A stretch of 37,343 nt of DNA, from assembly GCA_035256305.1 (NCBI GenBank), contig DATEYH010000138.1:1-37343 (forward strand). The letters run 5' to 3'. Below, in pieces: positions 14,970-32,235 of this stretch. The notes below the pieces were generated by a model. That model ran no database searches. It worked only from the letters and a program-made list of their open reading frames with translations, and was not told where the DNA came from. Position numbers and translations under genes: made by a program. The stretch's first letter is position 1. Each line of letters opens with the position of its first letter. The DNA comes from Candidatus Nanoarchaeia archaeon (lineage in GTDB: Archaea > Nanobdellota > Nanobdellia > Woesearchaeales > SM23-78).

Positions 14970-17288
14970 TCATACTTCTCCTGGCTGTTCTCCAATTGTT
15001 TGCCAAAAAGCCAATCCTTCAGCTCCTGTAGTGCAGGGCCCTGCTCCTAATCCGTATGGATTATTATGAACTCCTATAAATGCACAGATGTGTTGATAAC
15101 ATCCAATTGCACCACTTTTATGTTCATAAAGAAGATTATAACGATGACCTCGGCTCGTCATCCAGGAATCAACTGCTTCTTTAGGACTTGTGCCGGCAAT
15201 CGGTTCACCACTTTCATAATAAGTCATTCCGCCGAGGTTTTCTGCGAGAATTTCGTTTTCACTAAAGCCGTATTCACTTTTCATATCCTTTACACAAGTA
15301 CCTTCTGGTGTTACGTGATCGAAATAATTTCTTTCAGTCAAATCTTTAGACCGTGCAACTGCTAATTTATAAGCCCTTTCATCCCAGTCAATTTCATTTT
15401 TACCGTTTTCTTCCCTTAGCTGATTGATATAATCAAAAGCTTCCAAGTCTTGAACTTTTTTACTCTCGATACAATCTCCTTTCCAAATTGAATAACCCCA
15501 TTTACATCCACATTTTTCTGCGAAGGGGATTAGCTCTCCTTCTTTACAGTAATACGGCTTGTTATCATTACATTGACCATATTCTGTTCTATCAGAGCAA
15601 CGCATAATCTTCTTACAAGAATTTCCGTCTTTTCGATAGTCTTCAGGGCAACCGCATTCATCTGCATTGTTAATTAATGTTCCGTTAATGCATTGCTTTG
15701 GTTTGTTTAGAGAGCATTCTGGAGAGAGTGTGTTATCTGAACATTTTATTATAACTATGCATTCCTTTTGATACTCCCTTTGCCCCCCAGGACATCCGCA
15801 TTTGACAGCATCTTTTTTTAAACCCGAATAAGAGCAAAAAAACGGTGGATTACTGGAACAATCATTCAGTTGGGTTCCATCGCTGCATGTTATTTCTTCA
15901 CCAAATAAATTAAATACGAAATTTCTAACGATAAGAAAACGAGGTTGCTTAACAGAGTAGTTAATCACCTCAATGTAACTAAAATTCTTCTGAACTAATA
16001 TTGTTCCCGAAATATCCCTTTCAGATTTTTTTATGCTCGAAACATTAATCTTTAAATCGTTATAACTTCTTTTAAACACTCCCGTTATCTCATAAATATC
16101 AGGAGACGTCCCTTTATTTAGGAAAAATGAAGAATATTCTGACTCCCTGTTGATAAAATCCAGAGTGTTCCCATCATCATCGGCGATGGCTTGAACATAA
16201 ACTCCGGAAGTACTGCTACCTTTAACATACCTTTGAAGAAAACCTTTCAGCGTTACCGGTTGATTATTATAAGCAGTTCTATTTGCCAAATATTTTGAAA
16301 ATGACATGTGGGAAGTAATTGTTTGATTTTCGTAAACGGTCCTTATTTTTGTAAGATTCTCTGTTACTTCTTGCGTTGTTGTACTAAACGTCAGGTATAG
16401 AATAATTATAAAAATGAGAATTATTGGCAGAAATATTTTTATCAGTCGAAGAATGATTTTTTTCTTTTTTACATTAGGTTTTTTATTTTCTGATTTGATT
16501 TCTTCTTTTTCATCTGGCTTAATCTTAGTCTCTTCAGTTTCTTTCTTCGTTTCTGTTTCTAGTTTAGCTTCTAATGACTTGGCAGGAGCCTTGCTCGGAG
16601 TTTCTTTTCGCGGTGACTTGATAACTAAGTCTAGTTTTTTCCTGTATTCCTCTTGTTTTCTTTTTTGTTCAGCTTCCCAGTACTCAACAAAGTCCGGGCA
16701 AGGATGTCCCCCCATTTTACGCCATTCTTCCATGAATATTTTATCTTCTGGCCTGTTACTTTTGAATCTAGGAGGCCCCGCTGGCTTAGGCCTAAGATGG
16801 AAGGTGCAGAAAAACTGTTTGCAGTAAGAGCATTTTTTTAATTCTGTTTTTTTCTTACAATAATAATAACTACATTCATGTTTATTCAATTTTTTCTTAA
16901 CAATTTTTTCATTTTCTTTATCTAAGTTTAAACCGCCGCCCAAGTATATCCCTCCGGGCGGCTTCCAGGTGCCTAATCGAGCATTGCTCTGGGTTGCATA
17001 AAAACTGCTTTCGTGGCTTGGGTTTACAAGATGTGTTACTTCATGAGAAGCAGCTTCTTCAATTTCTTCAAAAGTCATCTGTTTTAGCCTTCGTTTAGAA
17101 ACACAAATAATGCCAGTTTCAATGTGTATATGCGCCCATTCATCAGGTCCTTCATATGGACATCTATCTTCATGAAATTCAACTCTGGGAATTTCAACAT
17201 TAAGGAATTCGGCTGTCTTTTTAACTGTAGCTAGAAATCTTGCTTTTTTCTCTGTTAAAATTTTATCTTCAAACGCGTCAGGTTCCAT
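14970..17288 (-). CDS. multidomain membrane protein: WLM/SprT-like Zn-protease + AN1-like zinc finger (cytoplasmic), TM helix, 3 Cys-rich repeats + CAP/SCP/PR-1 domain (extracellular)
   Basis: HEVTHLVNPSH (HExxHx5H) at aa 82-92. C-x4-C-x9-C-x2-C-x4-C-x2-H ... H-x-C at aa 139-197. Hydrophobic helix at aa 279-301. Three ~45-aa repeats ending CGCP/CGCK at aa 468-606. CAP motifs (YFDHV, WMTSRGHRYNLL) at aa 615-745. Confidence 0.75.
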   Translation of the reverse strand: MEPDAFEDKILTEKKARFLATVKKTAEFLNVEIPRVEFHEDRCPYEGPDEWAHIHIETGIICVSKRRLKQMTFEEIEEAASHEVTHLVNPSHESSFYATQSNARLGTWKPPGGIYLGGGLNLDKENEKIVKKKLNKHECSYYYCKKKTELKKCSYCKQFFCTFHLRPKPAGPPRFKSNRPEDKIFMEEWRKMGGHPCPDFVEYWEAEQKRKQEEYRKKLDLVIKSPRKETPSKAPAKSLEAKLETETKKETEETKIKPDEKEEIKSENKKPNVKKKKIILRLIKIFLPIILIFIIILYLTFSTTTQEVTENLTKIRTVYENQTITSHMSFSKYLANRTAYNNQPVTLKGFLQRYVKGSSTSGVYVQAIADDDGNTLDFINRESEYSSFFLNKGTSPDIYEITGVFKRSYNDLKINVSSIKKSERDISGTILVQKNFSYIEVINYSVKQPRFLIVRNFVFNLFGEEITCSDGTQLNDCSSNPPFFCSYSGLKKDAVKCGCPGGQREYQKECIVIIKCSDNTLSPECSLNKPKQCINGTLINNADECGCPEDYRKDGNSCKKIMRCSDRTEYGQCNDNKPYYCKEGELIPFAEKCGCKWGYSIWKGDCIESKKVQDLEAFDYINQLREENGKNEIDWDERAYKLAVARSKDLTERNYFDHVTPEGTCVKDMKSEYGFSENEILAENLGGMTYYESGEPIAGTSPKEAVDSWMTSRGHRYNLLYEHKSGAIGCYQHICAFIGVHNNPYGLGAGPCTTGAEGLAFWQTIGEQPGEV

Positions 17289-17319
17289 TTTTTTATAGAG
17301 TGAAGATACATTTTGGCGT

Positions 17320-17340
17320 ATTAATGTTTTTCTGTTTTTT
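17320..17340 (-). promoter_or_regulatory. shared promoter module copy 1 (plus strand ATTAATGTTTTTCTGTTTTTT)
   Basis: One of four near-identical copies, each 22-29 nt upstream of a minus-strand start codon. On the minus strand it reads as a purine-rich BRE-like tract followed by an ATTAATA TATA-like box. Confidence 0.6.
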
Positions 17341-17363
17341 CATCAATCCCTGCAGAAGAATAG

Positions 17364-17666
17364 TTACCGCATCCGGAATGGAATGCCGTGCTCTTCCAAA
17401 AGCACTTTCCTTATCTTTTGACGAACCCAATGACCGCGTTTGCCTCTTCTCTTAATGATGTCATGGCTGGTCTTAATAACAAGCCGCATGAACTCATTTC
17501 TTGTAGGCTCTCTTTTATGCCTAAGCTTAAATTTCCTTAATCGCTTGTTTAAGTTCCTATGAGCTCTGGCTCTTAGCTTACGGGAAAGAAATGGTCTTCG
17601 CTTTTTTGGAGCTACTGGAGGAAAAAGCCATCTAAGAAATTTTTTAATCTTGGTAAATAAACTCAT
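17364..17666 (-). CDS. highly basic small protein (100 aa, about 40% Lys/Arg), unknown function
   Basis: ORF preceded by promoter module copy 2 at leaderless spacing; no recognisable domain. Confidence 0.45.
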   Translation of the reverse strand: MSLFTKIKKFLRWLFPPVAPKKRRPFLSRKLRARAHRNLNKRLRKFKLRHKREPTRNEFMRLVIKTSHDIIKRRGKRGHWVRQKIRKVLLEEHGIPFRMR

Positions 17667-17690
17667 ACATTCAACCTTAAGTTTCAGTAT

Positions 17691-17710
17691 ATTAATGTTT
17701 TTTCGTTTTT
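17691..17710 (-). promoter_or_regulatory. shared promoter module copy 2
   Basis: ATTAATGTTTTTTCGTTTTT; TATA-like box ends 22 nt upstream of ATG 17666. Confidence 0.6.
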
Positions 17711-17720
17711 ATTTAAATTA

Positions 17721-18416
17721 TTAATCTACAAATTTAGCTGTAAAAATAAGTTCCTTTGAGTCTCTTGTTGGCGTGATGTTACTATAGCAGGTTAAGTTAC
17801 AGAGATACCTCCCAATTTTTACTTCAGTGGGAAAATCAGTGAATTTTATGGTATAGCTTCCTCCACAATATTCTTGGGTTTTCATAAGAACAATTCTTGT
17901 TGTAGAGCCTAAATTTGGACTATCAGTTATGCAAGCAGTAGTAGGTCCTGCCATTCCAGACCAACCTCGTTGAATAATTTTACCAATATATTGTTCGCAA
18001 CTTGAATCGCAAAAAACATCTCTTAGTAACGTATTACCAGTGTTCACAACAGTAAAAGTAAATGCGAGATAGTTCAATTCACGGGATATGTCACAAAAAC
18101 CTATATAAGTGTCATTAGTTATTTTTTCAATGTTTGAACAAGGTGCAGGTCCTGGTCCAGGTCCTATATCAAGGCGACTGATTGATATTTCATTTTTTTC
18201 CACAGTTTCTTGTGAACATAAAATAGGATTATCTACCTCCCTCCCATCATCACAATAATAGGCAGTTTTTTCAGGTTCTGGCGTAGGTTGGGGGCATAAG
18301 GAAGGGTCTGAGACCGTTTGCCCATTTGAACAAACATATTTAGCTGGCTCTTTTGAACAACTCGTTAAGAGAACTAACAAGAAAACTAACAAGAGCGATA
18401 TTTGAATAAGTTTCAT
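17721..18416 (-). CDS. cysteine-rich lipoprotein
   Basis: MKLIQISLLLVFLLVLLTSC lipobox. Duplicated Y-x-C-x2-G-x2-V-x2-P-x-LC motif. Start taken at ATG 18416, 22 nt from the TATA-like box (tracked ORF starts at 18425). Confidence 0.55.
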   Translation of the reverse strand: MKLIQISLLLVFLLVLLTSCSKEPAKYVCSNGQTVSDPSLCPQPTPEPEKTAYYCDDGREVDNPILCSQETVEKNEISISRLDIGPGPGPAPCSNIEKITNDTYIGFCDISRELNYLAFTFTVVNTGNTLLRDVFCDSSCEQYIGKIIQRGWSGMAGPTTACITDSPNLGSTTRIVLMKTQEYCGGSYTIKFTDFPTEVKIGRYLCNLTCYSNITPTRDSKELIFTAKFVD

Positions 18417-18440
18417 CAAAAGCATTATTATTTATCCAAT

Positions 18441-18461
18441 ATTAATGTTTTTCTGTTTTTT
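18441..18461 (-). promoter_or_regulatory. shared promoter module copy 3
   Basis: ATTAATGTTTTTCTGTTTTTT. Confidence 0.6.
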
Positions 18462-18547
18462 CTGTGTTTTTGATGTTAAATCTTGCTTTTATAGACTATA
18501 AATAAGCCTTTGAAAATATAAGCTCTGAGTTTGCTTAACCTAAATCA

Positions 18548-19576
18548 CTAATTTCTAATTAGAACATCTCCATCAGAAATAGTTATTGCCTCCGCATCAT
18601 AATATGACCCATAAACATCTGAATAATACCTGAAATTAGGGTCAGAAACTAAAGTAGTTTCTATAGGACAATAAACTATATCCCCATACTTACGACCGCT
18701 TAAACATTTAACTCCTACAGAAGCATGGTCTGCTTCTTCAAACATAAGTAGAGCTGTTCCATAACCTAATTCTCTTAGAAGGTAAATAAGAAGCAGGCTT
18801 TTTTCTTCACACAAACCTCTTTGTTCATAAAGAACCTGGAAAGGATACTTTCTATCTAAAGAATAGTTTCCTTCATTCGTAAGCTCATTTTCTAAAATCA
18901 AAAGTTTCTTATAATCATAAGAAATATATTGCACTAGGTTAATTGCAATATCTGCTTGTTCGTCTCTATTTGGAGTCTGCTTTTTTATCTCGCTTAATAA
19001 TTCATTTAAAAATGGTCTTTGGGCTTCCTCATCAAGAAATTTATTATAAAAATTCCTTCCTTCCTCCTCAGAGTAACCTTCATAGAGGACAGGTCTACGT
19101 AACTGTTTTAAATATTCGTTTAACCCTCCATATACTGTGAAATTCATGTAATCCTTTTCACCCACACGCAATTTTATTGTTTTAGGATTCAATTTGAAAT
19201 TATACTCGCAGTTTTCACCAACTACAACCATTAAAGGAGGGCAACCACACTCGGAAGCTTTATTAACCAACCATCCATTTTCACAATATAAAGGCTTATT
19301 TCTTGAGCATTCTCCATATTTTGTTCCTTCTATTCTATACATAACATCATCAGCCCAATATACTACATCGTCAAGACATCTTTGACTTGAATAATACTCC
19401 TGTTGCTCAGTGATATTATCAGAAGAATTGTCTGTGCTTTCATTTTCAACATAAATTCCGTTTTGGCTATAATTTGTTGGCTTGGAATAATTATTAGTAA
19501 CAATTGTTCCTTGTAATGAAGGATTACATGAAGTAATAAAAAGAAGAATTACCAATAACAAAAACAGTTCTTTCAT
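18548..19576 (-). CDS. secreted transglutaminase-like cysteine protease-fold protein with N-terminal Cys-rich module
   Basis: Signal/lipobox MKELFLLLVILLFITSC. GECSRNKPLYCENGWLVNKASECGCPP is the same module as in 14970-17288. QRGLCEEKSLLLIYLLRELGY...HASVGV fits a transglutaminase-like Cys/His core. The tracked N-terminal 28 codons overlap the promoter module. Confidence 0.6.
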   Translation of the reverse strand: MKELFLLLVILLFITSCNPSLQGTIVTNNYSKPTNYSQNGIYVENESTDNSSDNITEQQEYYSSQRCLDDVVYWADDVMYRIEGTKYGECSRNKPLYCENGWLVNKASECGCPPLMVVVGENCEYNFKLNPKTIKLRVGEKDYMNFTVYGGLNEYLKQLRRPVLYEGYSEEEGRNFYNKFLDEEAQRPFLNELLSEIKKQTPNRDEQADIAINLVQYISYDYKKLLILENELTNEGNYSLDRKYPFQVLYEQRGLCEEKSLLLIYLLRELGYGTALLMFEEADHASVGVKCLSGRKYGDIVYCPIETTLVSDPNFRYYSDVYGSYYDAEAITISDGDVLIRN

Positions 19577-19604
19577 ATTATTGAATGTAAAGATAATCTT
19601 GAAT

Positions 19605-19624
19605 ATTAATGTTTTTTCGTTTTT
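19605..19624 (-). promoter_or_regulatory. shared promoter module copy 4
   Basis: ATTAATGTTTTTTCGTTTTT; TATA-like box ends 26 nt upstream of ATG 19576. Confidence 0.6.
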
Positions 19625-19628
19625 ACTC

Positions 19629-19802
19629 TTATTTTCTAGGTAATTGTATGGTTGGTTCAATTTCTTTAGCTTTTTTATAATCGTTCTCCGCGCCTTTTAA
19701 ATCGCCCATTCTTTGTTTTATGAGTCCTCTTTCAACATATGCATCAGCATAATCTGGCTTAATTTTTATACATTTATTTAGGTCCTTCAGATTATTCTTC
19801 AA
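19629..19802 (-). pseudogene. TPR-repeat fragment (about 57 codons, no ATG)
   Basis: Minus-strand frame reads ...LKDLNKCIKIKPDYADAYVERGLIKQRMGDLKGAENDYKKAKEIEPTIQLPRK*, a single TPR unit. An in-frame stop lies just upstream and only a TTG could start it. Confidence 0.35.
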
Positions 19803-20030
19803 ACTCCTATTAATTTCCTTATCAGTTTAATGCTTATTTCTTAATCTATGCTTTGTCAAGGACTTTTTGTAATGATTATTTGTCATTATGCTTTTCTCAC
19901 TTCAATAATCGTTATAAACAATATCATCTTTTTCTTTCTTTTATCGTCGAGTGTTCAAGAGGCAGCTTTGCAGGGTTCTAGCAATGTATGAATGTTAGCA
20001 TGGCTAGCCAGGGCCATGGAGGTTCGTATC

Positions 20031-22571: not shown

Positions 22572-22836
22572 AAAGCTGGAGGCAAGGATAAACCTCAAAC
22601 TCCAATTAAAAAATATAACCAGCCAGGAAGAATAAACAAAAGCCAGTGGTACCATGCTGGAAAAGAACGCATAATCCTAGTCATGCTTAATAATCTGCAT
22701 ACTTAATGACCTGATGCCGGTTCCTCCTATGCATTTCCATTTTCCACCACCACTTATCCAGCCCGACATCACCCATTTTCATCACCTAACTTTTTCATCA
22801 CTTTCATACATATAATCTAATCTTGTTTTCCACATC

Positions 22837-22971
22837 TTAACTCACCTTAACATCTTTCTCAATCTTTCCGCTGCTATTCATCATCCTTGACCAAAAACTA
22901 TTGCAGACCTCCTCTCTATTAAAATAGGCCACTCCTAACTCAATTTCTCCTTGCTTCTTATCTTGTAACAT
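22837..22971 (-). CDS. micro-ORF (44 aa), first of three coupled micro-ORFs
   Basis: GAGGTGA 6 nt upstream of the ATG. Followed by a 17-codon ORF (22782-22835, AAGGTGA upstream) and a 31-codon ORF (22687-22782, TGATG stop/start overlap). Confidence 0.3.
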   Translation of the reverse strand: MLQDKKQGEIELGVAYFNREEVCNSFWSRMMNSSGKIEKDVKVS

Positions 22972-23007
22972 TTTCGTCACCTCTAATCACTCTAACTATT
23001 AATGGTT

Positions 23008-23031
23008 GGGGCAGGTTATTCTCTCTGCCCC
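23008..23031 (-). terminator. GC-rich hairpin (GGGGCAG-N10-CTGCCCC)
   Basis: 7-bp perfect stem, the only GC-rich hairpin in this AT-rich spacer, downstream of the zinc-ribbon ORF. Confidence 0.3.
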
Positions 23032-23104
23032 AAAATTTACTCAGTTCTAATCATTCAATCTCCTTCTATTCCTACCTCCTTTTCAAACAACGTCATTATA
23101 CGGG

Positions 23105-23230
23105 TCAAACAAAGTCCACGCACGGTCTTTCACAATAAGGGCATATGGGCGTAAGTCCAAGAATTTTTACCATACCTCCAATTTGCTTATTACAATGCTT
23201 ACAAATCATTGTCCTTGTTGTTTTAACCAT
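23105..23230 (-). CDS. zinc-ribbon mini-protein (41 aa, MVKTTRTMICKHCNKQIGGMVKILGLTPICPYCERPCVDFV)
   Basis: Two CxxC pairs; below the ORF-track cutoff. Confidence 0.4.
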   Translation of the reverse strand: MVKTTRTMICKHCNKQIGGMVKILGLTPICPYCERPCVDFV

Positions 23231-23389
23231 ATACTAACTTAGGATTAGCAAGTATAACTACCTGTGGTAGTAGAAATTATCTGAAAAGCCTTAAGGAGTA
23301 GTTATTTACCAAAAATCAAACAATACCTCTTAATTCAGTTTGAGGTTTTACTTCGCTTATTTGATTACAAAAAAAGCATACCTCGTTGT

Positions 23390-23612
23390 TTACAGCGAGG
23401 ATTGGTTTCCTTTTTTTGGATCAACAAAAGCTTTGCTTTTGAGCGCCAAAACAAAGTTTTGAGCGCAACAACCTCGCTTAATGCTTTTTTTGTACCAACA
23501 AAAGCTCTGCTTTTGAGTGCCAAAAAGCTTCGCTTTTTGAGCACAACATACCTTGCCCTTTAGGGCGAGGTTGTTGATTTTTGGAAATAATTCAGCCCGA
23601 AGGCCGAAATTA
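23390..23612 (-). repeat. cluster of four A/T-foot hairpin modules plus a 12-bp long-range inverted repeat and a UUCG-capped hairpin, in the 3' flank of the Lrp-like gene
   Basis: Units at 23424-23446, 23447-23466, 23499-23521 and 23521-23544 (minus-strand reading GCTCAAAAGC-loop-GCTTTTG-TTG). Inverted repeat 23466-23477 / 23565-23576. Hairpin 23586-23616. Confidence 0.7.
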
Positions 23613-24164
23613 TTTATCCAAGAAAAAATCATTTGATAAAGCTTCTTCAGGGTTAAGAATCGTGTTCAACAGGCCGATATGATTTGTTTTGATAATCCTA
23701 TCAACTGAAAAAGGGTAGACATTCACTATTTCAATCTCTTTTGAATATTTGCTTTGCAGCCTCATCAGGTACCTGTCCTTATCGTCAATATTCTTAAAGC
23801 CCATGACCAGCAAATGGGAGATTCTTGATTCAGGGACACGATACGCGATTATCACCTGCGGAATTTTTAGTATTTTTTCAGCGATCTCCTCCTCTGAATA
23901 CTTGTTCCAAATATACTGGGTAAACCTTACGCCTAAAACAACCAATGCCTCAATCCCAATTTTTTTATAATCAATGATAGGCATATACCCCCTTATTATC
24001 CCTACCTTCTCAAGCTTATGCCTGATCTTGAAGATTGCTTGCTGGGAGAGCCCCATCTTATGGGCGATTTCCAAATCAGGTATTTTGGCCTGCTCAATAA
24101 TCTTTTTCAGAACTTTTTGCTCGTTTCTTGTTAATTTAGGAAAGTTAACATCGGGCTTTTCCAT
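23610..24164 (-). CDS. Lrp/AsnC-like HTH transcriptional regulator
   Basis: N-terminal LTRNEQKVLKKIIEQAKIPDLEIAHKMGLSQQAIFKIRHKLEKVGIIRGY (winged-HTH AsnC type) plus a C-terminal alpha/beta domain. TTTATATA about 23 nt upstream of the ATG. Confidence 0.7.
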   Translation of the reverse strand: MEKPDVNFPKLTRNEQKVLKKIIEQAKIPDLEIAHKMGLSQQAIFKIRHKLEKVGIIRGYMPIIDYKKIGIEALVVLGVRFTQYIWNKYSEEEIAEKILKIPQVIIAYRVPESRISHLLVMGFKNIDDKDRYLMRLQSKYSKEIEIVNVYPFSVDRIIKTNHIGLLNTILNPEEALSNDFFLDK

Positions 24165-24230
24165 GCCAATAGTGAAGGCAGCATTCTATATAAATGTTCT
24201 TAATGCGGCAGTTAACCATAGAAGGAAAAG

Positions 24231-24359
24231 CGCCACGGCCCGGACTTTCAATGAAACTTAATCTCTCAGTTTCTTCTTTGAACCAGGAATTCCTTGCGGA
24301 ACCAGCTTTCCAGCTTAATGCCTCAAGGCTGGCGCACTACCAGATTATGCGACCGTGGC
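24231..24359 (-). tRNA. tRNA-Ser(UGA), class II, with two introns (14 nt at 37/38, 24308-24321; 32 nt in the T-loop at 59/60, 24245-24276)
   Basis: Hand fold: acceptor GCCACGG/CCGUGGC, discriminator G, D arm GCAU/GUGC, anticodon stem CCAGC/GCUGG, loop CUUGAG-A, long variable arm UUCC-GCAA-GGAA, T arm CCUGG/CCGGG with loop UUCAAA-U after splicing. Confidence 0.75.
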
Positions 24360-24540
24360 AAAAAAATTTTATTTTTTTGGACGTTCGCATACTCAAAAAT
24401 TGTAAATGAATTTTGTTGTACGCCTTTTTTAGGCGTGCTCAAAAATTGTGAAACAATTTTTGTTGTATGCGACCGTGGCACGAAGTGCTAGGTTGCATTC
24501 AGAAATTTGGAACAAATTTCTGTTATGCGACCGTGGCAAG
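24360..24540 (-). repeat. 5' leader of tRNA-Ser with two extra copies of tRNA nt 1-14 (GCCACGGUCGCAUA), one imperfect inverted copy and four hairpins
   Basis: Plus-strand TATGCGACCGTGGCA at 24346, 24466 and 24524. Hairpins CAGAAATTTG/CAAATTTCTG, CAAAAATTG/CAATTTTTG, ACGCC/GGCGT, CAAAAATT/AATTTTG. Inverted copy GGACGTTCGCATA at 24379-24391. Confidence 0.8.
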
Positions 24541-24594
24541 TCTGATAATATAACAGAACCATAACAACTTTTTAAATGTTTATCTTTTCTTGGC

Positions 24595-24927
24595 TCACCA
24601 CTCACCGACGCGGACATTAGCATATATCGAGCTTATTCCTTTCTTCCTGAAGGCTCTAAGCCTCGATATGCCGTCCTCAACCCTGAACTCCTCTCTTTGG
24701 GCGTGAAGCACAATCCTGATAGGGGGTATAGAAAACGGGTTTTTGCCTGCATCAAGCCAAGAAAGCACTTTTTTCTCCTTTGCATCCTGCCAGTCATTCG
24801 ACCTGTAAACTTTGTCCAAGTCATATTTTCCAAGATGATGTAAAATGTAGCTAACACTCATCTTAAAAGTGACAGACTTGTAGTTTCGCCTTAACCATGG
24901 CTTTCTCATGTAAGTGAATAATCCCAT
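24595..24927 (-). CDS. ParB N-terminal-like (sulfiredoxin-fold) domain protein
   Basis: IPPIRIVLHAQREEFRVEDGISRLRAFRKKGISSIYANV resembles the ParB-N nuclease/NTPase core (PPI..., DGxxR, G...I.A.V). Confidence 0.5.
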   Translation of the reverse strand: MGLFTYMRKPWLRRNYKSVTFKMSVSYILHHLGKYDLDKVYRSNDWQDAKEKKVLSWLDAGKNPFSIPPIRIVLHAQREEFRVEDGISRLRAFRKKGISSIYANVRVGEW

Positions 24928-24936
24928 TTTTAGAAC

Positions 24937-25443
24937 TCACACAGCATACTTGAACATGTTAAGGTAAGATTTTATCTCTTCCTGGACTTCCTGGGCGTCC
25001 TTGACAAGCTCTGCCTCGTACCTGTCAGTGTAAGACCTGTAAATGAACTTGTCAACAATAGCCCTGTAGAAGAAATAAGCAGGGCGGGATTCCCATCTTC
25101 CCTCATAATCAGTCACGAGTATGGCGTCAAAGGTGAAGTTCGCGCTGCCCTTGAGAAGCTTTTGCTTTACCCCTTGCAGCTCAACCTCAACCTCTTTAAG
25201 GTTTTCAAAAACAACAAAAACCCTCATCTCTAGCTTGTAATAATCACTAACCTTCTTATAAGGAATCAGCTCAAAAATTATCTTTTTGCCGTCCTCATAA
25301 ACCTCCTCGTAGTTCTTGTTCTCCCACATGTCATAGCCGTGCTCATTGAACCATTTAACAATAGTCCTGAACAAGTCTTTCAGATTAAACAAGCCCTCAA
25401 AGGAGACGAACTTGTCCTGGTAAACAATCTTCTTCTCAGCCAT
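24937..25443 (-). CDS. uncharacterised protein, paralog B
   Basis: 168 aa from ATG 25443 (GAGG about 8 nt upstream). Colinear similarity to the 25505-26029 product (F-x-G-L-[FY]...W..., K-x-V-x-[DE]-Y-Y, C-terminal acidic helix). Confidence 0.5.
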   Translation of the reverse strand: MAEKKIVYQDKFVSFEGLFNLKDLFRTIVKWFNEHGYDMWENKNYEEVYEDGKKIIFELIPYKKVSDYYKLEMRVFVVFENLKEVEVELQGVKQKLLKGSANFTFDAILVTDYEGRWESRPAYFFYRAIVDKFIYRSYTDRYEAELVKDAQEVQEEIKSYLNMFKYAV

Positions 25444-25504
25444 GGCAAACCTCTTTTTGTTGGAGTATTTATACTCCAATTCAAAAATCTTTAGTTTTTG
25501 TTAA

Positions 25505-26029
25505 CTAGCCTACTCCACTAGCATCTGCTTCTATTTTTAAAAACTTTTTTATTTCTGCCTCAAGCCTGTGCAAGTCCTTGTCAAAAGGGTCAATATAATT
25601 TATCTCCAGCTCATTCTTCAAGACGACCTTGCTAAGGAACATCTCCATGAGCTTGTGCACAGTATTATCTGGCTTGTAACGCTTCTGCCAGTCAGTTATG
25701 ACCGCGCCCTCTATCTTGATATCAATCCTTCCGTGCATCTTCATCACCTGGCGGCCATTCTCCACCACAGGCACCTCCCTTGACTCCCACAAATGATAAT
25801 GCACTTCCGCCCTGTACTGATAGTACTCTGTGACCTCCTTCTCCCCCCAGACATCCACCTCAAGCTCATTCCCAAGCGCAGTGTCTATCTTGTCCTTGTA
25901 GCGCTTCTCATGCACCCTGAACTGGCGCTTCAGCATCCAATTCCAGACAAAGCGATAAAGCCCTTCCCAGTCAAAATAGCCCTTGTAGCGAATCTTCAGT
26001 GGAGCTGGAAAAACATCCTTTTTATTCAT
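25505..26029 (-). CDS. uncharacterised protein, paralog A
   Basis: 174 aa; see paralog B. No signal peptide and no known motif. Confidence 0.5.
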   Translation of the reverse strand: MNKKDVFPAPLKIRYKGYFDWEGLYRFVWNWMLKRQFRVHEKRYKDKIDTALGNELEVDVWGEKEVTEYYQYRAEVHYHLWESREVPVVENGRQVMKMHGRIDIKIEGAVITDWQKRYKPDNTVHKLMEMFLSKVVLKNELEINYIDPFDKDLHRLEAEIKKFLKIEADASGVG

Positions 26030-28022: not shown

Positions 28023-28555
28023 TTAAGAATAAAACAAAAATTCTTTTTTATATTTAATTTTGAAACATAATTTCTTAGAAATAATAAATTAATGATAGCT
28101 GTTCATAGGAATCAACAACCAAGGTTGTTGAGCCAAAAATTCTGAGGAATTTTTGTGCATCATAGTCTTTGCTTCTCAGAGCCAATTCTCTGATTTGATT
28201 GTTAAATGAGAGATTGGACTTATTAGTGGCTGCATGCTGAGCACCTTGTTGCCTTGGTGCGTACACACCAGCTCTATCAACCCGATCTTCTATCGGCGTC
28301 CATGAGCGTCTCTTTTCAAGGATGGCTTCATACTTAGATGCTTTCAGTATTTATCCATGTAAAGCGTAGCTGCCCGGCCTACCCTGTCGGATAACCGGTC
28401 GACCAGAGGCTTCGGGCCCTCGTTCCTCTCGTACTAAAGGTCCCTTCCTTTCAGACACCCAACACTTCCAGTAGATATCAAACAAACTGCCTCGCAGCGT
28501 TCTGAACCCAGCTCACGATCCCTTTTGATAGGTGAACACCCTCACCCTTGGCCGC

Positions 28556-28588
28556 ATACAGTACCTTCTTACTTTCGCAAAAAGGTTA
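28556..28588 (-). other. 33-nt BHB-type mini-intron in 23S domain V (hairpin after GAUGUCGGCU)
   Basis: Outer helix GGCCG/CGGCC, central helix GCAG/CUGU, bulges AAU and AUG, inner helix ACCUU/AAGGU. Removal gives CCGUGCAGAAGCGGCC, the conserved archaeal LSU sequence as I recall it. Confidence 0.6.
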
Positions 28589-28852
28589 TTCTGCACGGCC
28601 AGGATAGGAAGAGCCGACATCTATGTAGCAAACCGCGCCGTCGATAGGAGCTCTCGGGCGCGACAACTCTGTTATCCCCGGAGTAACTTTTCGGTCGGTA
28701 CCGTCCCCCATTCAAGGAGGAACGGCAGTTCGTTAGGCCCAACTTTCGTTTCTGGTATTCTTCTTATTCAAATACCAGTCAGGCTGGCTTTTGCCCTTAC
28801 ACTCAACATCGGATTTCTGACCCGACTGAGCCAACCTTGGGGCGCCACTGAT

Positions 28853-28897
28853 ATAAAGCGAGCATAGACAAGCTTTATCAAGCAATCTATTGCTCAT
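28853..28897 (-). other. 45-nt BHB-type mini-intron in 23S domain V
   Basis: Textbook helix-bulge-helix-bulge-helix: GCCGCUGA/UCAGUGGC, central AAAG/CUUU, two AUA bulges, inner helix UGAGCA-UAGA/UCUAUGCUCG. Removal gives GCUGAAAAGAUAUCAGUGGC. Confidence 0.75.
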
Positions 28898-29233
28898 ATC
28901 TTTTCAGCGGCGTGCCACCCCAGCCAAACTGTCCACCTGCCGGTGTCCAAGTCACAAGGACTTGTGAGCAGCGTAAAACCAGATGAGTAGTGTTACATCG
29001 ACGTCTAAACCTGCACTTGCATGCAAGCCTCAAACAACTCCTACTTACTCTATACACCCGGTCTCACGTTGCAGCAACAGGCTACAGTAAAGTTTCACGG
29101 GGTCTTCGCTTCCCACTGGAAGTCTCTGGTCTTTGCACCAGAACAAAATTTTCAGAGGGTTCCGGTTGGGGACAGTGGAGATCTCGTTACGCCATTCATG
29201 CAGGCCGTCAATCAAACGGCAAGGCATTTCGCT

Positions 29234-30005
29234 CACATCTGTTACTTCCCTTAAAATTTAAGGTACTGACCTTCTCTTTAAGGCGGACAAGCATTTCTAC
29301 TAGTTGCTCAAAAATCTCAAATGATTTTTGGCAACCCCAAAACCACATGGTTTTGATGTCTCCTCACATCGCTATGAGGGTCGGACTATATCTTAACACT
29401 CATCAAAGAGTGTTTTTGGCGTATAGTCTCTGAGGATTCTAGACGCCTTATGACTTTTCGGTTCATCTCAGAAGCAAGTTCAGCTATTTTCTCTAAGCCT
29501 GCTCTTGACAAGTGCTCCTTTTTATTCATAATCCCTAATATTTGTGCAAAGAGTTCAAAGCTATTCTTCTTAGAAGTTTGAAGAGGATTTTCATTTATGA
29601 ACTGAACTATACGGTTCAGGTTGTCTAATCCTCTCACTCGGAACTCTTTCCTATCTCCGTTATTCACAGTTACGCTTCCAAAACCAAAATATGACTTGAT
29701 TCTGTGAAGTACTGCTTCATCGCGTTGATGTTGCACTATCCTTAATTCAGGGAGTACCTGCCATTTTAAGGTCATTTTCTCTAATCTATTAATAGACACA
29801 TGAAAACAACCTTCTCCATCAATGAATCCGACAATCCACTTAGCATCCAGTCTTTCCTGCTGATTATCTGCACCTATCACTTTTTCACCCTGACAACATA
29901 TAAACGTTTTAATTTAAATAGCTCACGTTAATATGTCCAGTGGTAGTGTAGGACTCTCAGACGTCCCAGCATATAGCCAGATTGTTTAAGGCAACTTCTG
30001 TGCTT
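29234..30005 (-). mobile_element. group I intron (772 nt) in 23S domain IV, carrying a LAGLIDADG homing endonuclease ORF
   Basis: Interrupts CUUAAGGU|AGCGAAAUGCC. The 5' exon ends in U, paired as U.G in a 7-bp P1 with internal guide GCCUUAA 13 nt into the intron. The intron ends in G. AAGAUAUAGUCCGACC (the classical S/P7 3' element) follows the ORF, with candidate P7 partner GGACAUAU. Confidence 0.75.
29386..29880 (-). CDS. LAGLIDADG homing endonuclease (single-motif type)
   Basis: KWIVGFIDGEGCFHVSI motif near the N-terminus; 164 aa; GTG start; sits inside the intron and its stop codon lies within the AAGAUAUAGUCC core element. Confidence 0.85.
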   Translation of the reverse strand: MIGADNQQERLDAKWIVGFIDGEGCFHVSINRLEKMTLKWQVLPELRIVQHQRDEAVLHRIKSYFGFGSVTVNNGDRKEFRVRGLDNLNRIVQFINENPLQTSKKNSFELFAQILGIMNKKEHLSRAGLEKIAELASEMNRKVIRRLESSETIRQKHSLMSVKI

Positions 30006-30837
30006 ACCTTAAGAGAGTTATAGTTACTCCCGCCGTTTACCTGTCCTTCGTTCCCTTGGATGGGATTTTCAGATACAGGCACTGGGCAGACGTCACCGAC
30101 TATTCTAGCCCTTACGGGTTGGCAGTCGGTTAAGTTTTTGTTAAACAGTCGGACCTCCTTTGTTACTGTGCCTTACACTCGCATTCTTATGAATACAAGT
30201 GTAGGGACCCCTTAGACCGAAGGCTTGGGGCTAATTTGCCGAATTCCCTCAACCAGATTGTCCCTTCTCGCCGTGGGCTTCTCACCCAGGGGCACCTGTG
30301 CCGGTGCTGGGTATAGACATAAAGGATTTTTCCCTGTTCCCTTTTCAAGGGCTCCGGGTATTAGCTGAACAATACTTAAGTACTGCTGTTCTAAGAGTTG
30401 ACCAGGTTCTCATCGTTACGATACTCCCCTGACCTGCCCTTATTAACAATCCCGACGGGGATTGTCAGCCTAACCAGAAGCGTCAGGAACAAGGCTTGCG
30501 TTACCGCACATACCAATATGGTACAGGAATATTAACCTGTTTCCCTTTCCTCTACTAGCTCAAGTTATGAGCTGAGTTAGGACTAACTTACCCTTGGCTG
30601 ATCTGCATTGCCAAGGAACCCTTGCCCTTTCAGCGACACTGATTCTCACAGTGCTAAGTTCTTACTATTACCAGGATTCTCATTCCTGCAAGATTGACCT
30701 CTCCTCTCGGAGAAGCTTCTGCTCTAGCAGGACGCCTACCTACCGCAACGCTTGCGCGTGCCAGCGGTCTCGGTGACTGATTTAGCCCCGTCCATCTTAG
30801 GCGCTCATAACCTCGAAGAGTAAGCTGTTACGCACTT

Positions 30838-30870
<33 letters not shown>

Positions 30871-32235
30871 CGCTGTCTTTGGTTATGAACAACCTTCACC
30901 CTTTCACACTTAACCAATGCTTAGGGACCTTAACCGCTGTCTGGGTTGTTCCCCTCTCGCGCATCACCCTTACGACGATGCGCCGTCTCCTGAGGTCTAC
31001 AGTGCATGGGACTTTGGAGTTGGACAAAGAACCGACCACTTTCGCGGCCTAAATCCTAAATCCGTAGCTCTACCTCCCAGGCAACCTCGCTCAGGGCTTG
31101 ACTGCAGCCAACTTCGGTAGGAACCAGCTATCGCCGAACTCGATTGGCTTTTTACCCCTACGCTCAAGTTAGAAGAACATTTGTACATAGAACCTCTGCA
31201 GGCCTCCACCCTTCTTTAGAAGGGCTTCACCTTACCCAAGTGTAGTTCGTCCGGCTTCGGGTCTGGTCCGAGTGACTAAAGGCGCTTTCACACCTCTCCC
31301 CTCGCATGCTGCGGGATATTGCTTTCGCTTTGGATGCCCATTGATTAATGGTTATCCTTGCCACTCAGACAAACTCCCTGGCTCGTTATTCTAAACGCAC
31401 GATACACAGCCGAAGCTGCGTATCCCGCTGTATCTACTAGGTTTCAAGTTCTATTTGACTCTCTGTCAAGAGTTCTTTTCAGCTTTCCCTCACGGTACTG
31501 GTTCGCTATCGGACTCAAAACGTGTTTAGGGTTAGGAGTTGATGCCTCCTAGCTTCGCACCTAGTATCCAGTAGGTGCTACTCAAGATACTGCCACGCCT
31601 CCCTGACTCCCTCTACGGGACTATCACCCTCTATGGTACTTCTTTCCAGAAGACTTTGAGTCATCAGGGTAAGGTCTAAAAGACAGTCTTACAAATCCAC
31701 ATCCCATCTCATTTTTCAATGAAAGGTTCAGATTGCCCTTTGCTGCTTTCGCTCTCTGCTAATAACAGCATCCTTAGTTTAGTTTCTCTTCCTGCAGGTA
31801 CTAAGACGTTTCAGTTCCCTGCGTATAGCTAGCCTTTCGGCTTCAAAGCGAAGTCGCATTCAGAAATCCCTGGTTCAACCCCTGCGTGCGGGTCGCCAAG
31901 GCTTTTCGTGGCTTGCCACGTCCTTCTTCGCCGTCTTGAGCCAAGCTATCCTCCTAGTAGAGTATTTTCTCTCAGAACTTAGCAATCATTTCAGAGACTT
32001 ATCTCTGTGTTGCAAAGACCAATAATTTCCTATGAACAGCCTTCATTAAACATGAGTAAATGAATATTGGTCGACATGAAAAAGCATGTCTTCTCGTGTT
32101 CTGAGCTTCTTCACCCAGCAAGTCTTAGTTGCCGAGCTGCTAATAAAAAATTGAATATGAAATGTAAGTGGACTCTGCGACAACAAAAATCGCGAAGCGA
32201 TTTTTGAGTCCTCGAGTCCATCTCACTTCGTTCGA

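What the first reader, a model, noticed from the sequence alone, without database searches (positions are those of the whole stretch)
24360..24540. Triplicated 5' end of tRNA-Ser interleaved with hairpins in its own leader
The first 14 nt of tRNA-Ser (GCCACGGUCGCAUA) occur three times in direct orientation: the gene itself plus copies 58 and 120 nt further upstream. An imperfect inverted copy (UAUGCGAACGUCC) can pair with the middle copy and enclose three hairpins in a cloverleaf-like fold. In the distal copy GCAU-AA-[hairpin]-A-AUGC mimics a D arm with an inserted hairpin. This could reflect repeated insertion of a small hairpin element with target duplication, remnants of integration (att-like) events at the tRNA, or a decoy or processing structure in the pre-tRNA leader. 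I know of no described equivalent.
Basis: seen in the sequence. Interest (0 to 1): 0.7.

Follow-up and report, generated by a model that had tools for sequence, protein, structure and literature searches.

The report
Duplicated tRNA ends flanking hairpin modules
The three copies of the start of this archaeal serine tRNA gene are real. They look like the footprint of small hairpin-bearing DNA modules that repeatedly insert at tRNA gene ends in DPANN archaea, each time rebuilding the gene and stranding the old end, a miniature form of mobile-element integration that does not seem to have been described.

Summary
GCCACGGTCGCATA occurs exactly three times on the minus strand (0.02 expected). The proximal copy starts a genuine tRNA-Ser(UGA) gene with two introns. 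The three-copy leader appears in an independent assembly, and a two-copy haplotype coexists in the same species.

Each upstream unit has the same layout: a copy of tRNA nt 1-14, a perfect A/T-rich hairpin, an imperfect inverted copy of the 14-mer, then a spacer. The only promoter-like motif lies upstream of the distal copy, so the units are probably transcribed as a long leader.

Relatives show clean presence or absence of units. A second species has the same three-copy arrangement, and a Micrarchaeota genome has arrays of up to four units. Mirror-image units occur at tRNA 3' ends, including tRNA-Ala in this window's rRNA spacer. A spacer motif is shared between units at different tRNAs and genomes.

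Best reading (0.55): miniature palindromic insertion modules that duplicate the tRNA terminus. This would be a new variant of the known pattern of a regenerated tRNA gene plus a displaced fragment at integration sites. No recombinase was found. A selected RNA role, such as sequestering the decoy 5' ends, remains possible.

The parts
24231..24359 (-). tRNA-Ser(UGA) gene, 129 nt. Exons are at 24359-24322, 24307-24277 and 24244-24231. Intron 1 (37/38, 14 nt) is at 24321-24308. Intron 2 (T-loop 59/60, 32 nt, good bulge-helix-bulge motif) is at 24276-24245. No CCA is encoded.
   Evidence: The in-silico spliced sequence is called tRNA-Ser(tga) by ARAGORN. The unspliced gene is missed by ARAGORN and Rfam. 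The same gene, with other intron sets, occurs in L006-L012 and L073.
24346..24359 (-). Proximal 14-mer GCCACGGTCGCATA. This is nt 1-14 of the functional tRNA (acceptor 5' strand, U8, C9, D-stem 5' strand, A14).
24360..24378 (-). Spacer of the proximal (A-type) unit, AAAAAAATAAAATTTTTTT. With the flanking C and G1 it forms a 9-bp A/T hairpin. It ends in a T7 run directly before tRNA nt 1.
   Evidence: The loop varies in strain contigs L003 and L005.
24379..24391 (-). Imperfect inverted copy ('anti') of the 14-mer, TATGCGAACGTCC. It pairs with nt 4-14 of the middle copy, with a G7.A mismatch.
   Evidence: Local alignment to the reverse complement of the copy gives 10/11 identity, shuffle p<0.0005. 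It is paired in the MFE fold.
24392..24465 (-). Hairpin block of the A-type unit. It reads CAA, then hairpin CAAAAATTGT/ACAATTTTTG, then a GC hairpin GCACGCCT..AGGCGT, then a degenerate third hairpin, then AG. It can also fold as one 32-nt-arm palindrome. In the two-copy haplotype a single hairpin, CAGAAAC TGCG GTTTCTG, takes its place.
24466..24479 (-). Middle 14-mer copy (displaced tRNA 5' end, unit A).
   Evidence: Also present in the independent contig L064.
24480..24490 (-). Spacer of the distal (B-type) unit, TAGCACTTCGT. It contains CACTTCGT, the same motif in the same register as the reverse complement of the spacer in the tRNA-Ala 3' unit.
   Evidence: 8/8 match, shuffle p about 0.002
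24491..24498 (-). B-type inverted copy ATGCAACC. It pairs with nt 6-13 of the distal copy, with a C9.A mismatch. The same octamer (RTGCAACC) occurs in L009, L010, L058, L073 and L083.
24499..24523 (-). B-type hairpin CAGAAATTTG TTC CAAATTTCTG, a perfect 10-bp stem, with one flanking nt on each side.
24524..24537 (-). Distal 14-mer copy. It sits where the tRNA start would be relative to the promoter.
24568..24580 (-). Promoter-like BRE/TATA motif AACATTTAAAAAG, with 31 nt between TATA and the distal copy. No comparable motif lies before the functional copy.
   Evidence: The same motif type precedes three other starts. It lies 21 nt before the ATG of the downstream gene (D3). It lies 32 nt before tRNA-Gly in the same genome. 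It lies 25-26 nt before tRNA-Ser in relatives that have no insert (L008, L082). Its promoter function is inferred, not shown.
32169..32235 (-). Second instance in this window: a mirror-image unit after the 3' end of tRNA-Ala(UGC) in the 16S-23S spacer. It reads spacer TCGAACGAAGTGAGA, inverted copy TGGACTCGAGGA, CT, hairpin CAAAAATCGC TTC GCGATTTTTG, TTG, then copy TCGCAGAGTCCA of the tRNA 3' end.
   Evidence: An exact 11-nt direct repeat lies at 32169-32179 and 32236-32246. The tRNA-Ala gene is confirmed by in-silico splicing. The spacer is 15/15 identical to the one after tRNA-Ser(CGA) in L058.

Best explanation
**What it is.** The upstream copies are displaced 5' ends of the tRNA-Ser gene. 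They were left by two duplicative insertions of a small non-coding palindromic DNA module into the gene near nt 14/15.

Each insertion regenerates an intact tRNA 5' end next to the rest of the gene. It strands the previous 5' end, still attached to the original promoter, on the far side of the module.

**The module.** Read outward-in, a module is:
- the displaced copy;
- a perfect A/T-rich hairpin;
- an imperfect inverted copy of the same tRNA terminus;
- a short spacer;
- the functional tRNA end.

The same module family inserts in mirror orientation at tRNA 3' ends.

**Shown.**
- The anatomy of the units.
- Their gain or loss as whole units bounded by the repeats.
- Matching of the copies to the resident tRNA allele.
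- Occurrence at both ends, at different tRNAs and in different genomes, with a shared spacer motif.
- Tandem arrays of units.

**Inferred.**
- An unidentified site-specific recombinase or transposase (or a comparable targeted process) makes the insertions.
- Transcription starts at the old promoter and reads through the modules. RNase P then cuts at the proximal G1.
- Pairing of each displaced copy with its inverted copy keeps the decoy 5' ends from pairing with the tRNA's 3' acceptor strand. This would explain why the modules are tolerated and why copy and inverted copy stay matched.
For: **1. The promoter-like motif keeps tRNA-start geometry relative to the distal copy.** The spacing is 31 nt here. 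It is 32 nt for tRNA-Gly in the same genome, and 25-26 nt for insert-free tRNA-Ser genes in relatives. Nothing promoter-like lies before the functional copy in any module-bearing gene.

**2. Units are cleanly present or absent.**
- L040 (no unit) and L009 (one 68-nt unit) have near-identical promoter regions.
- The window and L001 are 99.95% identical over 9.7 kb except for 117 nt versus 6 nt in the leader.
- L081 and L082 lack units, whereas the more distant L073 species has the same B-then-A three-copy leader.

**3. Copies match the resident acceptor allele.** The alleles GCCACGG, GCCGTGG, GCCGCGG and GCCGAGG are each matched by their own upstream copies. The inverted copy covaries with the allele as well.

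**4. Mirror-image units sit at 3' ends.** They occur in L010, L024 (two units), L040 and L058, and at tRNA-Ala in this window.

**5. A spacer motif is shared.**
- TCGAACGAAGTGAGA is 15/15 identical after tRNA-Ala (window) and after tRNA-Ser(CGA) (L058).
- It matches 11/13 in L024.
- Its reverse complement matches 8/8, in register, in the window's distal 5' unit.

**6. Arrays and frequency.**
- There are four units in the Micrarchaeota locus L052 and two in L034.
- Of 65 distinct tRNA-Ser loci, 14 have an upstream 9-mer copy, against 1 in the reverse-strand control.

**7. Relatives carry cassettes at the tRNA-Ser 3' end.** These 0.5-1.1 kb cassettes encode Fic, ParE-like, Phd/YafQ-like and nucleotidyltransferase proteins. 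Each is bounded by a copy of the tRNA 3' end. The same cassette occupies different array positions in L006 and L012.

**8. The central hairpins point to DNA-level palindromes.** All are perfect Watson-Crick stems without G.U pairs, although their sequences differ between loci. They are swapped wholesale between near-identical haplotypes.

**9. A known principle fits.** Integration into tRNA genes regenerates the target and leaves a displaced fragment, sometimes at the 5' end and sometimes in tandem (PMC4383910, PMC3293823).
Against: - No integrase, transposase or casposase gene was found in the window or next to any module. Two viral-contig scans found nothing.
- Classical target-site duplication does not explain the inverted copy of the target inside the module.
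- The duplicated length is not constant. It is 9-10 nt in Micrarchaeota, 11 nt at tRNA-Ala and 14 nt here, and it reaches 29-34 nt including flank in L024 and L027.
- The B-then-A arrangement, the octamer RTGCAACC with its C.A mismatch, and the CAA/AG flanks are conserved between species whose neighbouring protein is only 67% identical. This points to selection, not to neutral scars.
- T5-T7 runs in the leader might terminate archaeal transcription before the tRNA, which would sit badly with read-through from the distal promoter.
Confidence: 0.55

Rival explanations
1. The units are a selected RNA element of the pre-tRNA leader or trailer. The copy-hairpin-inverted-copy stem-loops would act in the transcript. 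They might attenuate or pause transcription at their T-runs, guide or time RNase P or RNase Z processing, or buffer folding of the tRNA. Their tRNA-derived sequence would then be required for function.
For: - The architecture recurs in Woesearchaeota, Micrarchaeota and possibly Aenigmatarchaeota.
- The two-unit order is conserved between two species. So are the exact upstream 14-mers, RTGCAACC with its C9.A mismatch, and the CAA/AG flanks, while spacers and hairpin sequences drift with complementarity kept.
- The upstream copy is paired within its own unit in the MFE fold of all ten units. In 6 of the 10, at most 8 of 200 shuffles reached the observed pairing.
- The inverted copy covaries with acceptor-stem alleles.
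Against: - The units are absent from close relatives with the same gene neighbourhood: L008, L040, L081 and L082. L083 carries a decayed copy.
- Unit number differs within one species.
- The hairpin sequence is replaced wholesale between haplotypes that are 99.95% identical.
- There are no G.U pairs in roughly 100 hairpin base pairs.
- The same hairpin class lies on either strand relative to transcription elsewhere in the window.
- No Rfam family matches.
Confidence: 0.2
2. The units arise locally, with no mobile element. Replication or repair template switching (fold-back priming at an A/T-rich palindrome, then a switch back) at the heavily transcribed tRNA gene would produce an inverted triplication of the form S - hairpin - inverted S - spacer - S in one step. 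Unequal recombination between the repeats would then add or remove units.
For: - This mechanism yields a direct copy and an inverted copy of the local sequence in one event, which fits the allele matching of both.
- The duplicated segment has a variable outer boundary and includes 15-20 nt of upstream flank in L024, L027 and L052.
- Two L052 units are near-identical tandem copies.
- The A-type hairpin block in the window is itself a nested palindrome.
Against: - The spacer motif is shared between units at different tRNAs and in different genomes. It is 15/15 between tRNA-Ala here and tRNA-Ser(CGA) in L058.
- Hairpin flanks recur (CAA..AG or CT..TTG), and stems of the CA[AG]AA type recur at unrelated loci.
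- The inner boundary after nt 14 is the same in three tRNA-Ser isoacceptor genes: UGA, CGA and GCU.
Confidence: 0.15
3. The upstream copies are alternative or split 5' exons. Either the splicing endonuclease removes the segment between two copies as a bulge-helix-bulge (BHB) intron, or the copies are trans-spliced to other tRNA-Ser bodies.
For: - This genome does splice non-canonical tRNA introns. The T-loop intron of this gene forms a good BHB (from the sequence).
- For the GCCGCGG and GCCGTGG alleles (L024, L058), two copies can pair with each other into an hBHBh' motif. The cuts would fall after nt 8 and would restore the tRNA.
Against: - For the window's allele the central 4-bp helix would be CACG/CACG, with only 2 of 4 pairs. 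No BHB joining congruent positions of two copies was found.
- The BHB scan is noisy, and as filtered it missed the known T-loop intron.
- Relatives carry complete genes for tRNA-Ser(UGA), (CGA) and (GCU).
Confidence: 0.04
4. The triplication is an assembly artefact caused by mis-joined or duplicated reads.
For: Several short-read contigs break inside the palindromic leader: L003, L005 and L064.
Against: - An independent assembly reproduces the distal and middle copies with the same hairpins.
- A second species shows a three-copy leader that is identical in eight loci shown, out of 21 contigs read.
- The units differ from each other in sequence, so they are not collapsed or duplicated reads.
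Confidence: 0.01

Closest known systems
Displaced tRNA-gene fragments at integration sites of genomic islands, plasmids and viruses (tyrosine-integrase attL/attR; the 'Islander' principle; the Caldiarchaeum tRNA-Thr 5' fragment)
   Same: - A direct repeat of a tRNA terminus.
- The gene is regenerated next to the insert and the old end is displaced.
- 5'-end cases and tandem arrays exist: 159 of 3919 islands have a 5' fragment, and 125 are tandems (PMC4383910).
- Population heterogeneity at one tRNA locus is documented (PMC3293823).
- Relatives here carry gene cassettes bounded by copies of the tRNA-Ser 3' end.
   Different: - The inserts are only 41-106 nt, non-coding and palindromic.
- No integrase lies in or near them.
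- Each insert contains an inverted copy of the target.
- The repeat is short (9-14 nt).
- The same module is used in mirror orientation at both tRNA ends.
Folded-hairpin recombination sites: integron attC sites and the CTX-phi attP(+) hairpin
   Same: - An imperfect palindrome whose two arms pair into a duplex resembling the double-stranded target.
- A constant defect in the middle of that duplex (C9.A, G7.A or U8.C).
- A highly variable apical hairpin.
- The order copy - loop - inverted copy - body - copy is what integration of such a folded site predicts (my own derivation).
- Cassette arrays rich in toxin-antitoxin genes, and attC clusters lacking an integrase, are reported in archaea including Nanoarchaeota (PMC9668308).
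   Different: - There are no GTTRRRY / RYYYAAC core sites.
- No IntI or Xer gene was seen.
- The 'attI' would be a tRNA end.
- Nothing here shows single-stranded recombination.
Casposons (Cas1-solo transposons)
   Same: A target-site duplication of 14-15 bp, and a preference for tRNA gene ends in archaea (PMC5137440, PMC4779613).
   Different: - There are no terminal inverted repeats of the casposon type.
- There is no casposase or PolB gene.
- Elements are 40-110 nt instead of kilobases.
- The duplication length varies between 9 and 34 nt among relatives.
REP/REPIN, MITE and other small dispersed palindromic repeats
   Same: - Short imperfect palindromes that are over-represented in intergenic DNA. 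The window holds 21 perfect hairpins of 8 bp or more, against 4.1 expected, and 8 belong to one sequence class, against 0 expected.
- They sit mostly at gene 3' ends.
- Their content varies between strains.
   Different: - The outer arms are locus-specific, being copies of the adjacent tRNA end, instead of conserved termini.
- No associated RAYT or TnpA gene was seen.
- The insertions are tied to tRNA termini and regenerate the gene.
Archaeal bulge-helix-bulge tRNA introns and split or tri-split tRNA genes
   Same: - Short hairpin-containing inserts inside tRNA genes of the same genomes, including one at 59/60 in this very gene.
- The literature proposes that mobile elements create introns and fragments (PMC3293823).
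   Different: - The units lie outside the mature tRNA because the terminus is duplicated.
- No BHB joins the copies for this allele.
- No trans-splicing partner is needed.

Membership tests
tRNA-targeted integrative element junctions (attL/attR) | Direct repeat made of a tRNA gene terminus, with the gene regenerated at one junction | tested here: met
   There are three exact 14-mers, and only the proximal one continues into the tRNA. The same holds at 3' ends in relatives and at tRNA-Ala here.
tRNA-targeted integrative element junctions (attL/attR) | Empty-site alleles in related genomes that differ by exactly one repeat plus the insert | tested here: met
   L040 versus L009. Two-copy versus three-copy haplotypes. 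L008, L081 and L082 have no insert.
tRNA-targeted integrative element junctions (attL/attR) | An element body with an integrase gene between the repeats | tested here: not met
   The inserts are 44 and 106 nt. No integrase-like Pfam hit was found among 30 window ORFs. The 3' cassettes in relatives encode Fic or toxin-antitoxin proteins, and none of the cassette proteins scanned was an integrase. ORFs flanking the modules in six relatives were listed but not scanned against Pfam.
Casposon | 14-15 bp target-site duplication | tested here: inconclusive
   The duplication is 14 nt here (15 nt with the T at -1). It is 9-10, 11 or 29-34 nt in other loci.
Casposon | Terminal inverted repeats plus casposase (Cas1) and PolB genes | tested here: not met
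   No such genes were found in the window. The insert is too small to encode anything.
Integron attC / cassette array | Imperfect palindrome with paired R/L boxes, an unpaired central spacer and a variable terminal structure | tested here: inconclusive
   The copy:inverted-copy helix always has a central defect, and the apical hairpin is variable. This is a resemblance only.
Integron attC / cassette array | Conserved core sites (GTTRRRY and its inverse) and an IntI integrase | tested here: not met
   No such cores are visible in the units. No integrase was found in the window.
MITE / transposon insertion | Conserved terminal inverted repeats, a fixed-length target duplication and many near-identical copies | tested here: not met
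   The arms are target-derived, not conserved. The duplication length varies. Only the hairpin class and a spacer motif are shared.
Archaeal BHB intron / split tRNA | A bulge-helix-bulge motif whose two cuts restore the mature tRNA | tested here: not met
   No congruent BHB was found for the GCCACGG allele. The motif is met only for the GCCGCGG and GCCGTGG alleles of L024 and L058. The scan is noisy.
Any curated RNA family (Rfam 15) | A match at or above the gathering score | tested here: not met
   Only the rRNAs pass in the window. In 24100-24700 the best E-value is 0.36, far below the cut-offs.
Functional pre-tRNA leader element | The units are transcribed with the tRNA and affect its maturation | not testable with these tools
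   The promoter position is inferred from motif spacing only. No expression data were available.

The most novel reading that the evidence does not exclude
DPANN archaea may harbour an undescribed family of miniature mobile modules that target tRNA ends. Their attachment site would be a folded hairpin in which an inverted copy pairs with a copy of the tRNA terminus to mimic the target duplex, as in integron attC or CTX-phi attP. On this reading the tRNA 5' or 3' end acts as the acceptor site. The same recombination system would stack toxin-antitoxin cassettes behind tRNA-Ser. It would also seed hairpin inserts inside tRNA genes, giving a concrete route to archaeal tRNA intron gain and gene fragmentation.
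Probability: 0.25. Interest if true: 0.8.

Novelty: new variant of a known kind. Interest (0 to 1): 0.62.

Why it matters
How archaeal tRNA genes acquire introns, split and fragment is a long-standing open question. The favoured idea, damage and repair by integrating mobile elements, rests on few natural snapshots. These loci provide many snapshots:
- the same tRNA gene with zero, one, two, three or four stranded 5' ends;
- mirror-image events at 3' ends;
- coexisting haplotypes within one species;
- cassette arrays at the same sites in relatives.

If the modules are mobile, they define a new class of very small elements that are specific for tRNA ends, and they imply a recombinase yet to be found. 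If they are selected RNA structures instead, they would be the first pre-tRNA leaders built from copies of the tRNA itself.

There is also a practical consequence. These genes are invisible to standard tRNA finders, and the palindromes break short-read assemblies.

Tried and rejected
**RNA family searches.**
- Rfam found nothing in the region beyond noise.
- ARAGORN with intron options does not find the gene.

**BHB scan for splicing between copies.**
- No congruent motif was found for this allele.
- The scan gave many chance hits, and as filtered it missed the true T-loop intron. It is therefore weak negative evidence.

**Is the post-hairpin segment a direct copy of the tRNA body (D-stem 3' strand onward)?** I rejected this in favour of an inverted copy of nt 1-14. 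The inverted-copy alignment was significant in 6 of 9 units. The direct-copy alignment was significant only in L039.

**Search for a recombinase.**
- Pfam scans of 30 window ORFs found none.
- ORF listings around the modules in six relatives showed no obvious candidate.

**Search for free elements.** Two pattern scans of viral contigs gave no hits.

**K-turn reading of the conserved CAA/AG internal loop.** I rejected this by inspection, because the tandem G.A pairs are missing.

**The A/T-rich spacer as a promoter for the functional copy.** I rejected this on geometry. A TATA box there would place the start inside the tRNA.

**Literature searches.** They found no description of such leaders.

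**Other tRNA types.** Their generality could not be tested properly. About a dozen ARAGORN calls in the fetched loci were typed as non-Ser and lay at positions separate from the tRNA-Ser genes. Several further non-Ser labels were mistyped intron-bearing tRNA-Ser genes. None of the separate genes has a duplicated end. tRNA-Gly next to the window has none either.
Full report
**1. Observation**

The window is archaeal. The 23S and 16S rRNA genes lie on the minus strand.

GCCACGGTCGCATA occurs exactly three times, all on the minus strand, at 24359-24346, 24479-24466 and 24537-24524. Shuffles expect 0.02 matches even with two mismatches allowed.

The proximal copy begins a tRNA-Ser(UGA) gene (24359->24231). 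ARAGORN and Rfam miss it because it has two introns: 14 nt at 37/38 and 32 nt in the T-loop at 59/60. After in-silico splicing, ARAGORN returns a canonical class II tRNA-Ser(tga).

In the MFE fold, each upstream copy pairs with the imperfect inverted copy that follows its hairpin.

**2. Not an artefact, and polymorphic**

Contigs that encode exactly the same neighbouring proteins come from several independent assemblies.
- L001, L002, L004 and L065 carry a two-copy leader: 14-mer, CAA, CAGAAAC TGCG GTTTCTG, AG, TATGCGAACGTCC, A/T spacer, tRNA.
- L064 carries the distal and middle copies of the three-copy form and ends inside the palindrome.
- L003 and L005 begin in the A/T spacer.

The window and L001 are 99.95% identical over 9.7 kb. 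The exception is the leader, where 117 nt correspond to 6 nt. Two haplotypes of one species therefore coexist, and the hairpin part is exchanged wholesale rather than changed by point mutation.

**3. Anatomy**

Read in the direction of the tRNA, the region runs as follows:
- a promoter-like motif AACATTTAAAAAG (24580-24568), followed by 31 nt;
- unit B: 14-mer, A, hairpin CAGAAATTTG TTC CAAATTTCTG, A, ATGCAACC, TAGCACTTCGT;
- unit A: 14-mer, CAA, hairpin block, AG, TATGCGAACGTCC, A7-TAAAA-T7;
- the tRNA.

The same promoter motif type precedes three other starts:
- the ATG of the downstream gene, by 21 nt;
- tRNA-Gly just beyond the window's end, by 32 nt;
- insert-free tRNA-Ser genes of relatives, by 25-26 nt.

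No such motif lies in front of the functional copy in any module-bearing gene. I infer that the distal copy marks the original gene start and that the units are transcribed as a leader. This inference is not shown by expression data. The T5-T7 runs in the leader are a caveat.

**4. Relatives**

Pattern scans with the tRNA's 5' part returned 7 metagenome loci and 51 representative-genome loci. Most are Woesearchaeota. Others are Micrarchaeota, Aenigmatarchaeota, Nanoarchaeota and Nitrososphaerales.

Upstream copies with the same layout occur in L009, L010, L011, L024, L027, L039 and L058. These include the UGA, CGA and GCU isoacceptor genes. In each locus the copy carries the resident acceptor allele (GCCACGG, GCCGTGG or GCCGCGG).

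With a 9-mer seed, 14 of 65 distinct tRNA-Ser loci have an upstream copy, against 1 in the reverse-strand control.

The Micrarchaeota locus L052 has four tandem 52-nt units, each made of flank, GCCGAGGTCA, a hairpin and CCCTCGTC. L034 has two units.

Homologues of the adjacent 110-aa protein led to a second species (67% identity; the leader is identical in the eight loci shown, out of 21 contigs read). It has three exact 14-mers and the same B-then-A order. Two other species (76% and 69% identity) have none, and one locus has a decayed copy. L040 and L009 share a near-identical promoter region but differ by exactly one 68-nt unit.

**5. The inverted copy**

In 6 of 9 units, the segment after the hairpin aligns significantly to the reverse complement of the 14-mer (p<0.05). 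It does not align to the tRNA body.

It covaries with the acceptor allele: ..ACCGT, ..ACCAC, ..CCGC.

The helix always has a defect around nt 6-9. This is a C9.A mismatch in five lineages with RTGCAACC, a G7.A mismatch here in unit A, and a U8.C mismatch in L024.

In all ten units the MFE fold pairs the upstream copy within its own unit.

The apical hairpins differ between loci, yet they are perfect Watson-Crick stems without G.U pairs. This suggests maintenance as DNA palindromes.

**6. Both ends, other tRNAs, shared sequence**

Mirror-image units follow the 3' end of tRNA-Ser in L010, L024 (two units), L040 and L058. Their order is tRNA, spacer, inverted copy, hairpin, then a copy of the last 12-14 nt.

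The same structure follows tRNA-Ala(UGC) in this window's 16S-23S spacer. That gene (32377->32236, minus strand) has two introns and is confirmed by in-silico splicing. An exact 11-nt repeat lies at 32169-32179 and 32236-32246.

Its spacer TCGAACGAAGTGAGA is 15/15 identical to the spacer after tRNA-Ser(CGA) in L058. It matches 11/13 in L024. Its reverse complement (CACTTCGT) sits in register in the spacer of the window's distal 5' unit.

The modules at 5' and 3' ends therefore form one family. They are always oriented as displaced copy, hairpin, inverted copy, spacer, functional tRNA end.

**7. Context**

Other relatives carry cassettes of 0.5-1.1 kb after the tRNA-Ser 3' end. These encode Fic, ParE-like and Phd/YafQ-like proteins and a nucleotidyltransferase with a partner. 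Each cassette ends in a copy of the tRNA 3' end.
- L012 has one cassette.
- L006 has the same cassette preceded by a Fic cassette and a mini-unit.

The ends of tRNA-Ser genes are thus recombination hot spots in this clade.

No integrase or transposase was found in the window or near the modules. Two viral-contig scans also found nothing.

The leader hairpins belong to a genome-wide class, CA[AG]AA..TT[CT]TG, often flanked by CAA..AG. The window holds 21 perfect hairpins of 8 bp or more, against 4.1 +/- 1.8 in shuffles. Eight belong to this class, against none in shuffles. Most lie at gene 3' ends and in rRNA spacers.

**8. Interpretation**

The best-supported reading is a DNA-level one. Small palindromic modules insert at tRNA termini with duplication of the terminus. 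This regenerates the gene and strands the old end. It is the known principle of 'regenerated target plus displaced fragment' (PMC4383910; a 5' case in Caldiarchaeum, PMC3293823), here in a miniature, non-coding, tandem form.

The window's triplication corresponds to two such units. A second species shares them, so they are probably old. The two-copy haplotype is probably a derived loss or rearrangement.

Three things remain unknown:
- the enzyme;
- how the inverted target copy arises;
- whether the modules still move.

Conservation of the copies and of RTGCAACC argues for selection. A simple rationale (inferred) is that a stranded 5' end would compete for the tRNA's 3' acceptor strand, and a free inverted copy would pair with the real 5' end. 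Each therefore keeps the other under constraint, and only whole-unit loss between repeats is tolerated, which matches what the polymorphisms show.

The rivals are a selected RNA role, local template-switch origin, and splicing between copies. Splicing is not supported for this allele. All rivals are listed with their tests.

**9. Verdict**

The phenomenon is wider than the finding: it involves both tRNA ends, at least two tRNA types, and several DPANN phyla.

I rate it a new variant of a known kind, with interest 0.62.

Noticed in passing
window 32236-32377 (-) and 32169-32235: A tRNA-Ala(UGC) gene with G3:U70 and two introns lies in the 16S-23S spacer. ARAGORN and Rfam miss it. A 3' unit of the same family follows it: an exact 11-nt repeat of the tRNA 3' end, a hairpin at 32184-32206, and the spacer TCGAACGAAGTGAGA.
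   Followed up: yes
window 331-349, 23425-23539, 28134-28155, 29309-29355, 32184-32206, 34413-34435, 35795-35816: A genome-wide class of perfect A/T-rich hairpins (CA[AG]AA..TT[CT]TG) occurs here. Many are flanked by CAA..AG and topped by short GC-rich outer stems. Most lie at gene 3' ends or in rRNA spacers. The window holds 21 perfect hairpins of 8 bp or more against about 4 expected. Their function is unknown; they could be terminators, processing signals or a REP-like repeat.
   Followed up: partly
window 23404-23548: Two tandem units of about 74 nt, each with two hairpins of that class, lie in a roughly 1-kb stretch (22572-23609) between convergent genes. That stretch has no convincing ORF.
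   Followed up: no
L006 (and L060), L012, L033, L057: Small cassettes follow the 3' end of tRNA-Ser. They encode Fic, ParE-like toxin with a partner, Phd/YafQ-like proteins, and a nucleotidyltransferase with a partner. Each cassette ends in a copy of the tRNA 3' end, and none carries an integrase. L006 equals L012 plus an extra Fic cassette at the tRNA-proximal position, an accretion pattern resembling an integron.
   Followed up: partly
L024 and L058, upstream copy plus tRNA start: For the acceptor alleles GCCGCGG and GCCGTGG, the two copies (with flank AT/GT) can pair with each other into a helix-bulge-helix-bulge-helix motif. The cuts would fall after nt 8 of each copy and would excise the unit as an intron. 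This does not work for the window's GCCACGG allele.
   Followed up: partly
L052 (Micrarchaeota MAG 297), about 210 nt upstream of tRNA-Ser; also L034: Four tandem 52-nt units lie between the promoter and the tRNA. Each holds a copy of tRNA nt 1-9/10, a different perfect hairpin, and CCCTCGTC. Two of the units are nearly identical. L034 has two degenerate units.
   Followed up: partly
L073 versus L079, directly after tRNA-Ser nt 73: In the second species, two contig types are identical up to the last tRNA nucleotide and unrelated afterwards. The tRNA 3' end is therefore a rearrangement or insertion breakpoint in that population.
   Followed up: no
window 28202-31977 (23S) and 32482-34131 (16S): Both rRNA genes are longer than their models: 3776 versus 2987 nt, and 1650 versus 1478 nt. 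The 23S insert carries a LAGLIDADG homing-endonuclease ORF (29386-29880, minus strand; Pfam hit listed for the same gene in L001).
   Followed up: no
window about 9400-11813 and 13000-20000: Small ORFs lie between core genes. The contig annotation lists weak Fic and RepB-regulator hits for some, and a Bro-N domain protein sits at 10980-11813. A low-GC stretch follows (0.31-0.38 versus about 0.43), with a 772-aa CAP-domain protein. This may be acquired DNA.
   Followed up: no
window 24595-26029 (-) and homologous loci: A conserved trio of uncharacterised genes (174 aa, 180 aa, 110 aa) lies directly upstream of tRNA-Ser(UGA) in the window's species and in L040, L073, L081 and L083, whether or not modules are present. 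L082 shows the 110-aa gene and part of one upstream gene. The two larger proteins look like paralogues by eye. Pfam gives no family above its cut-off for any of the three.
   Followed up: no
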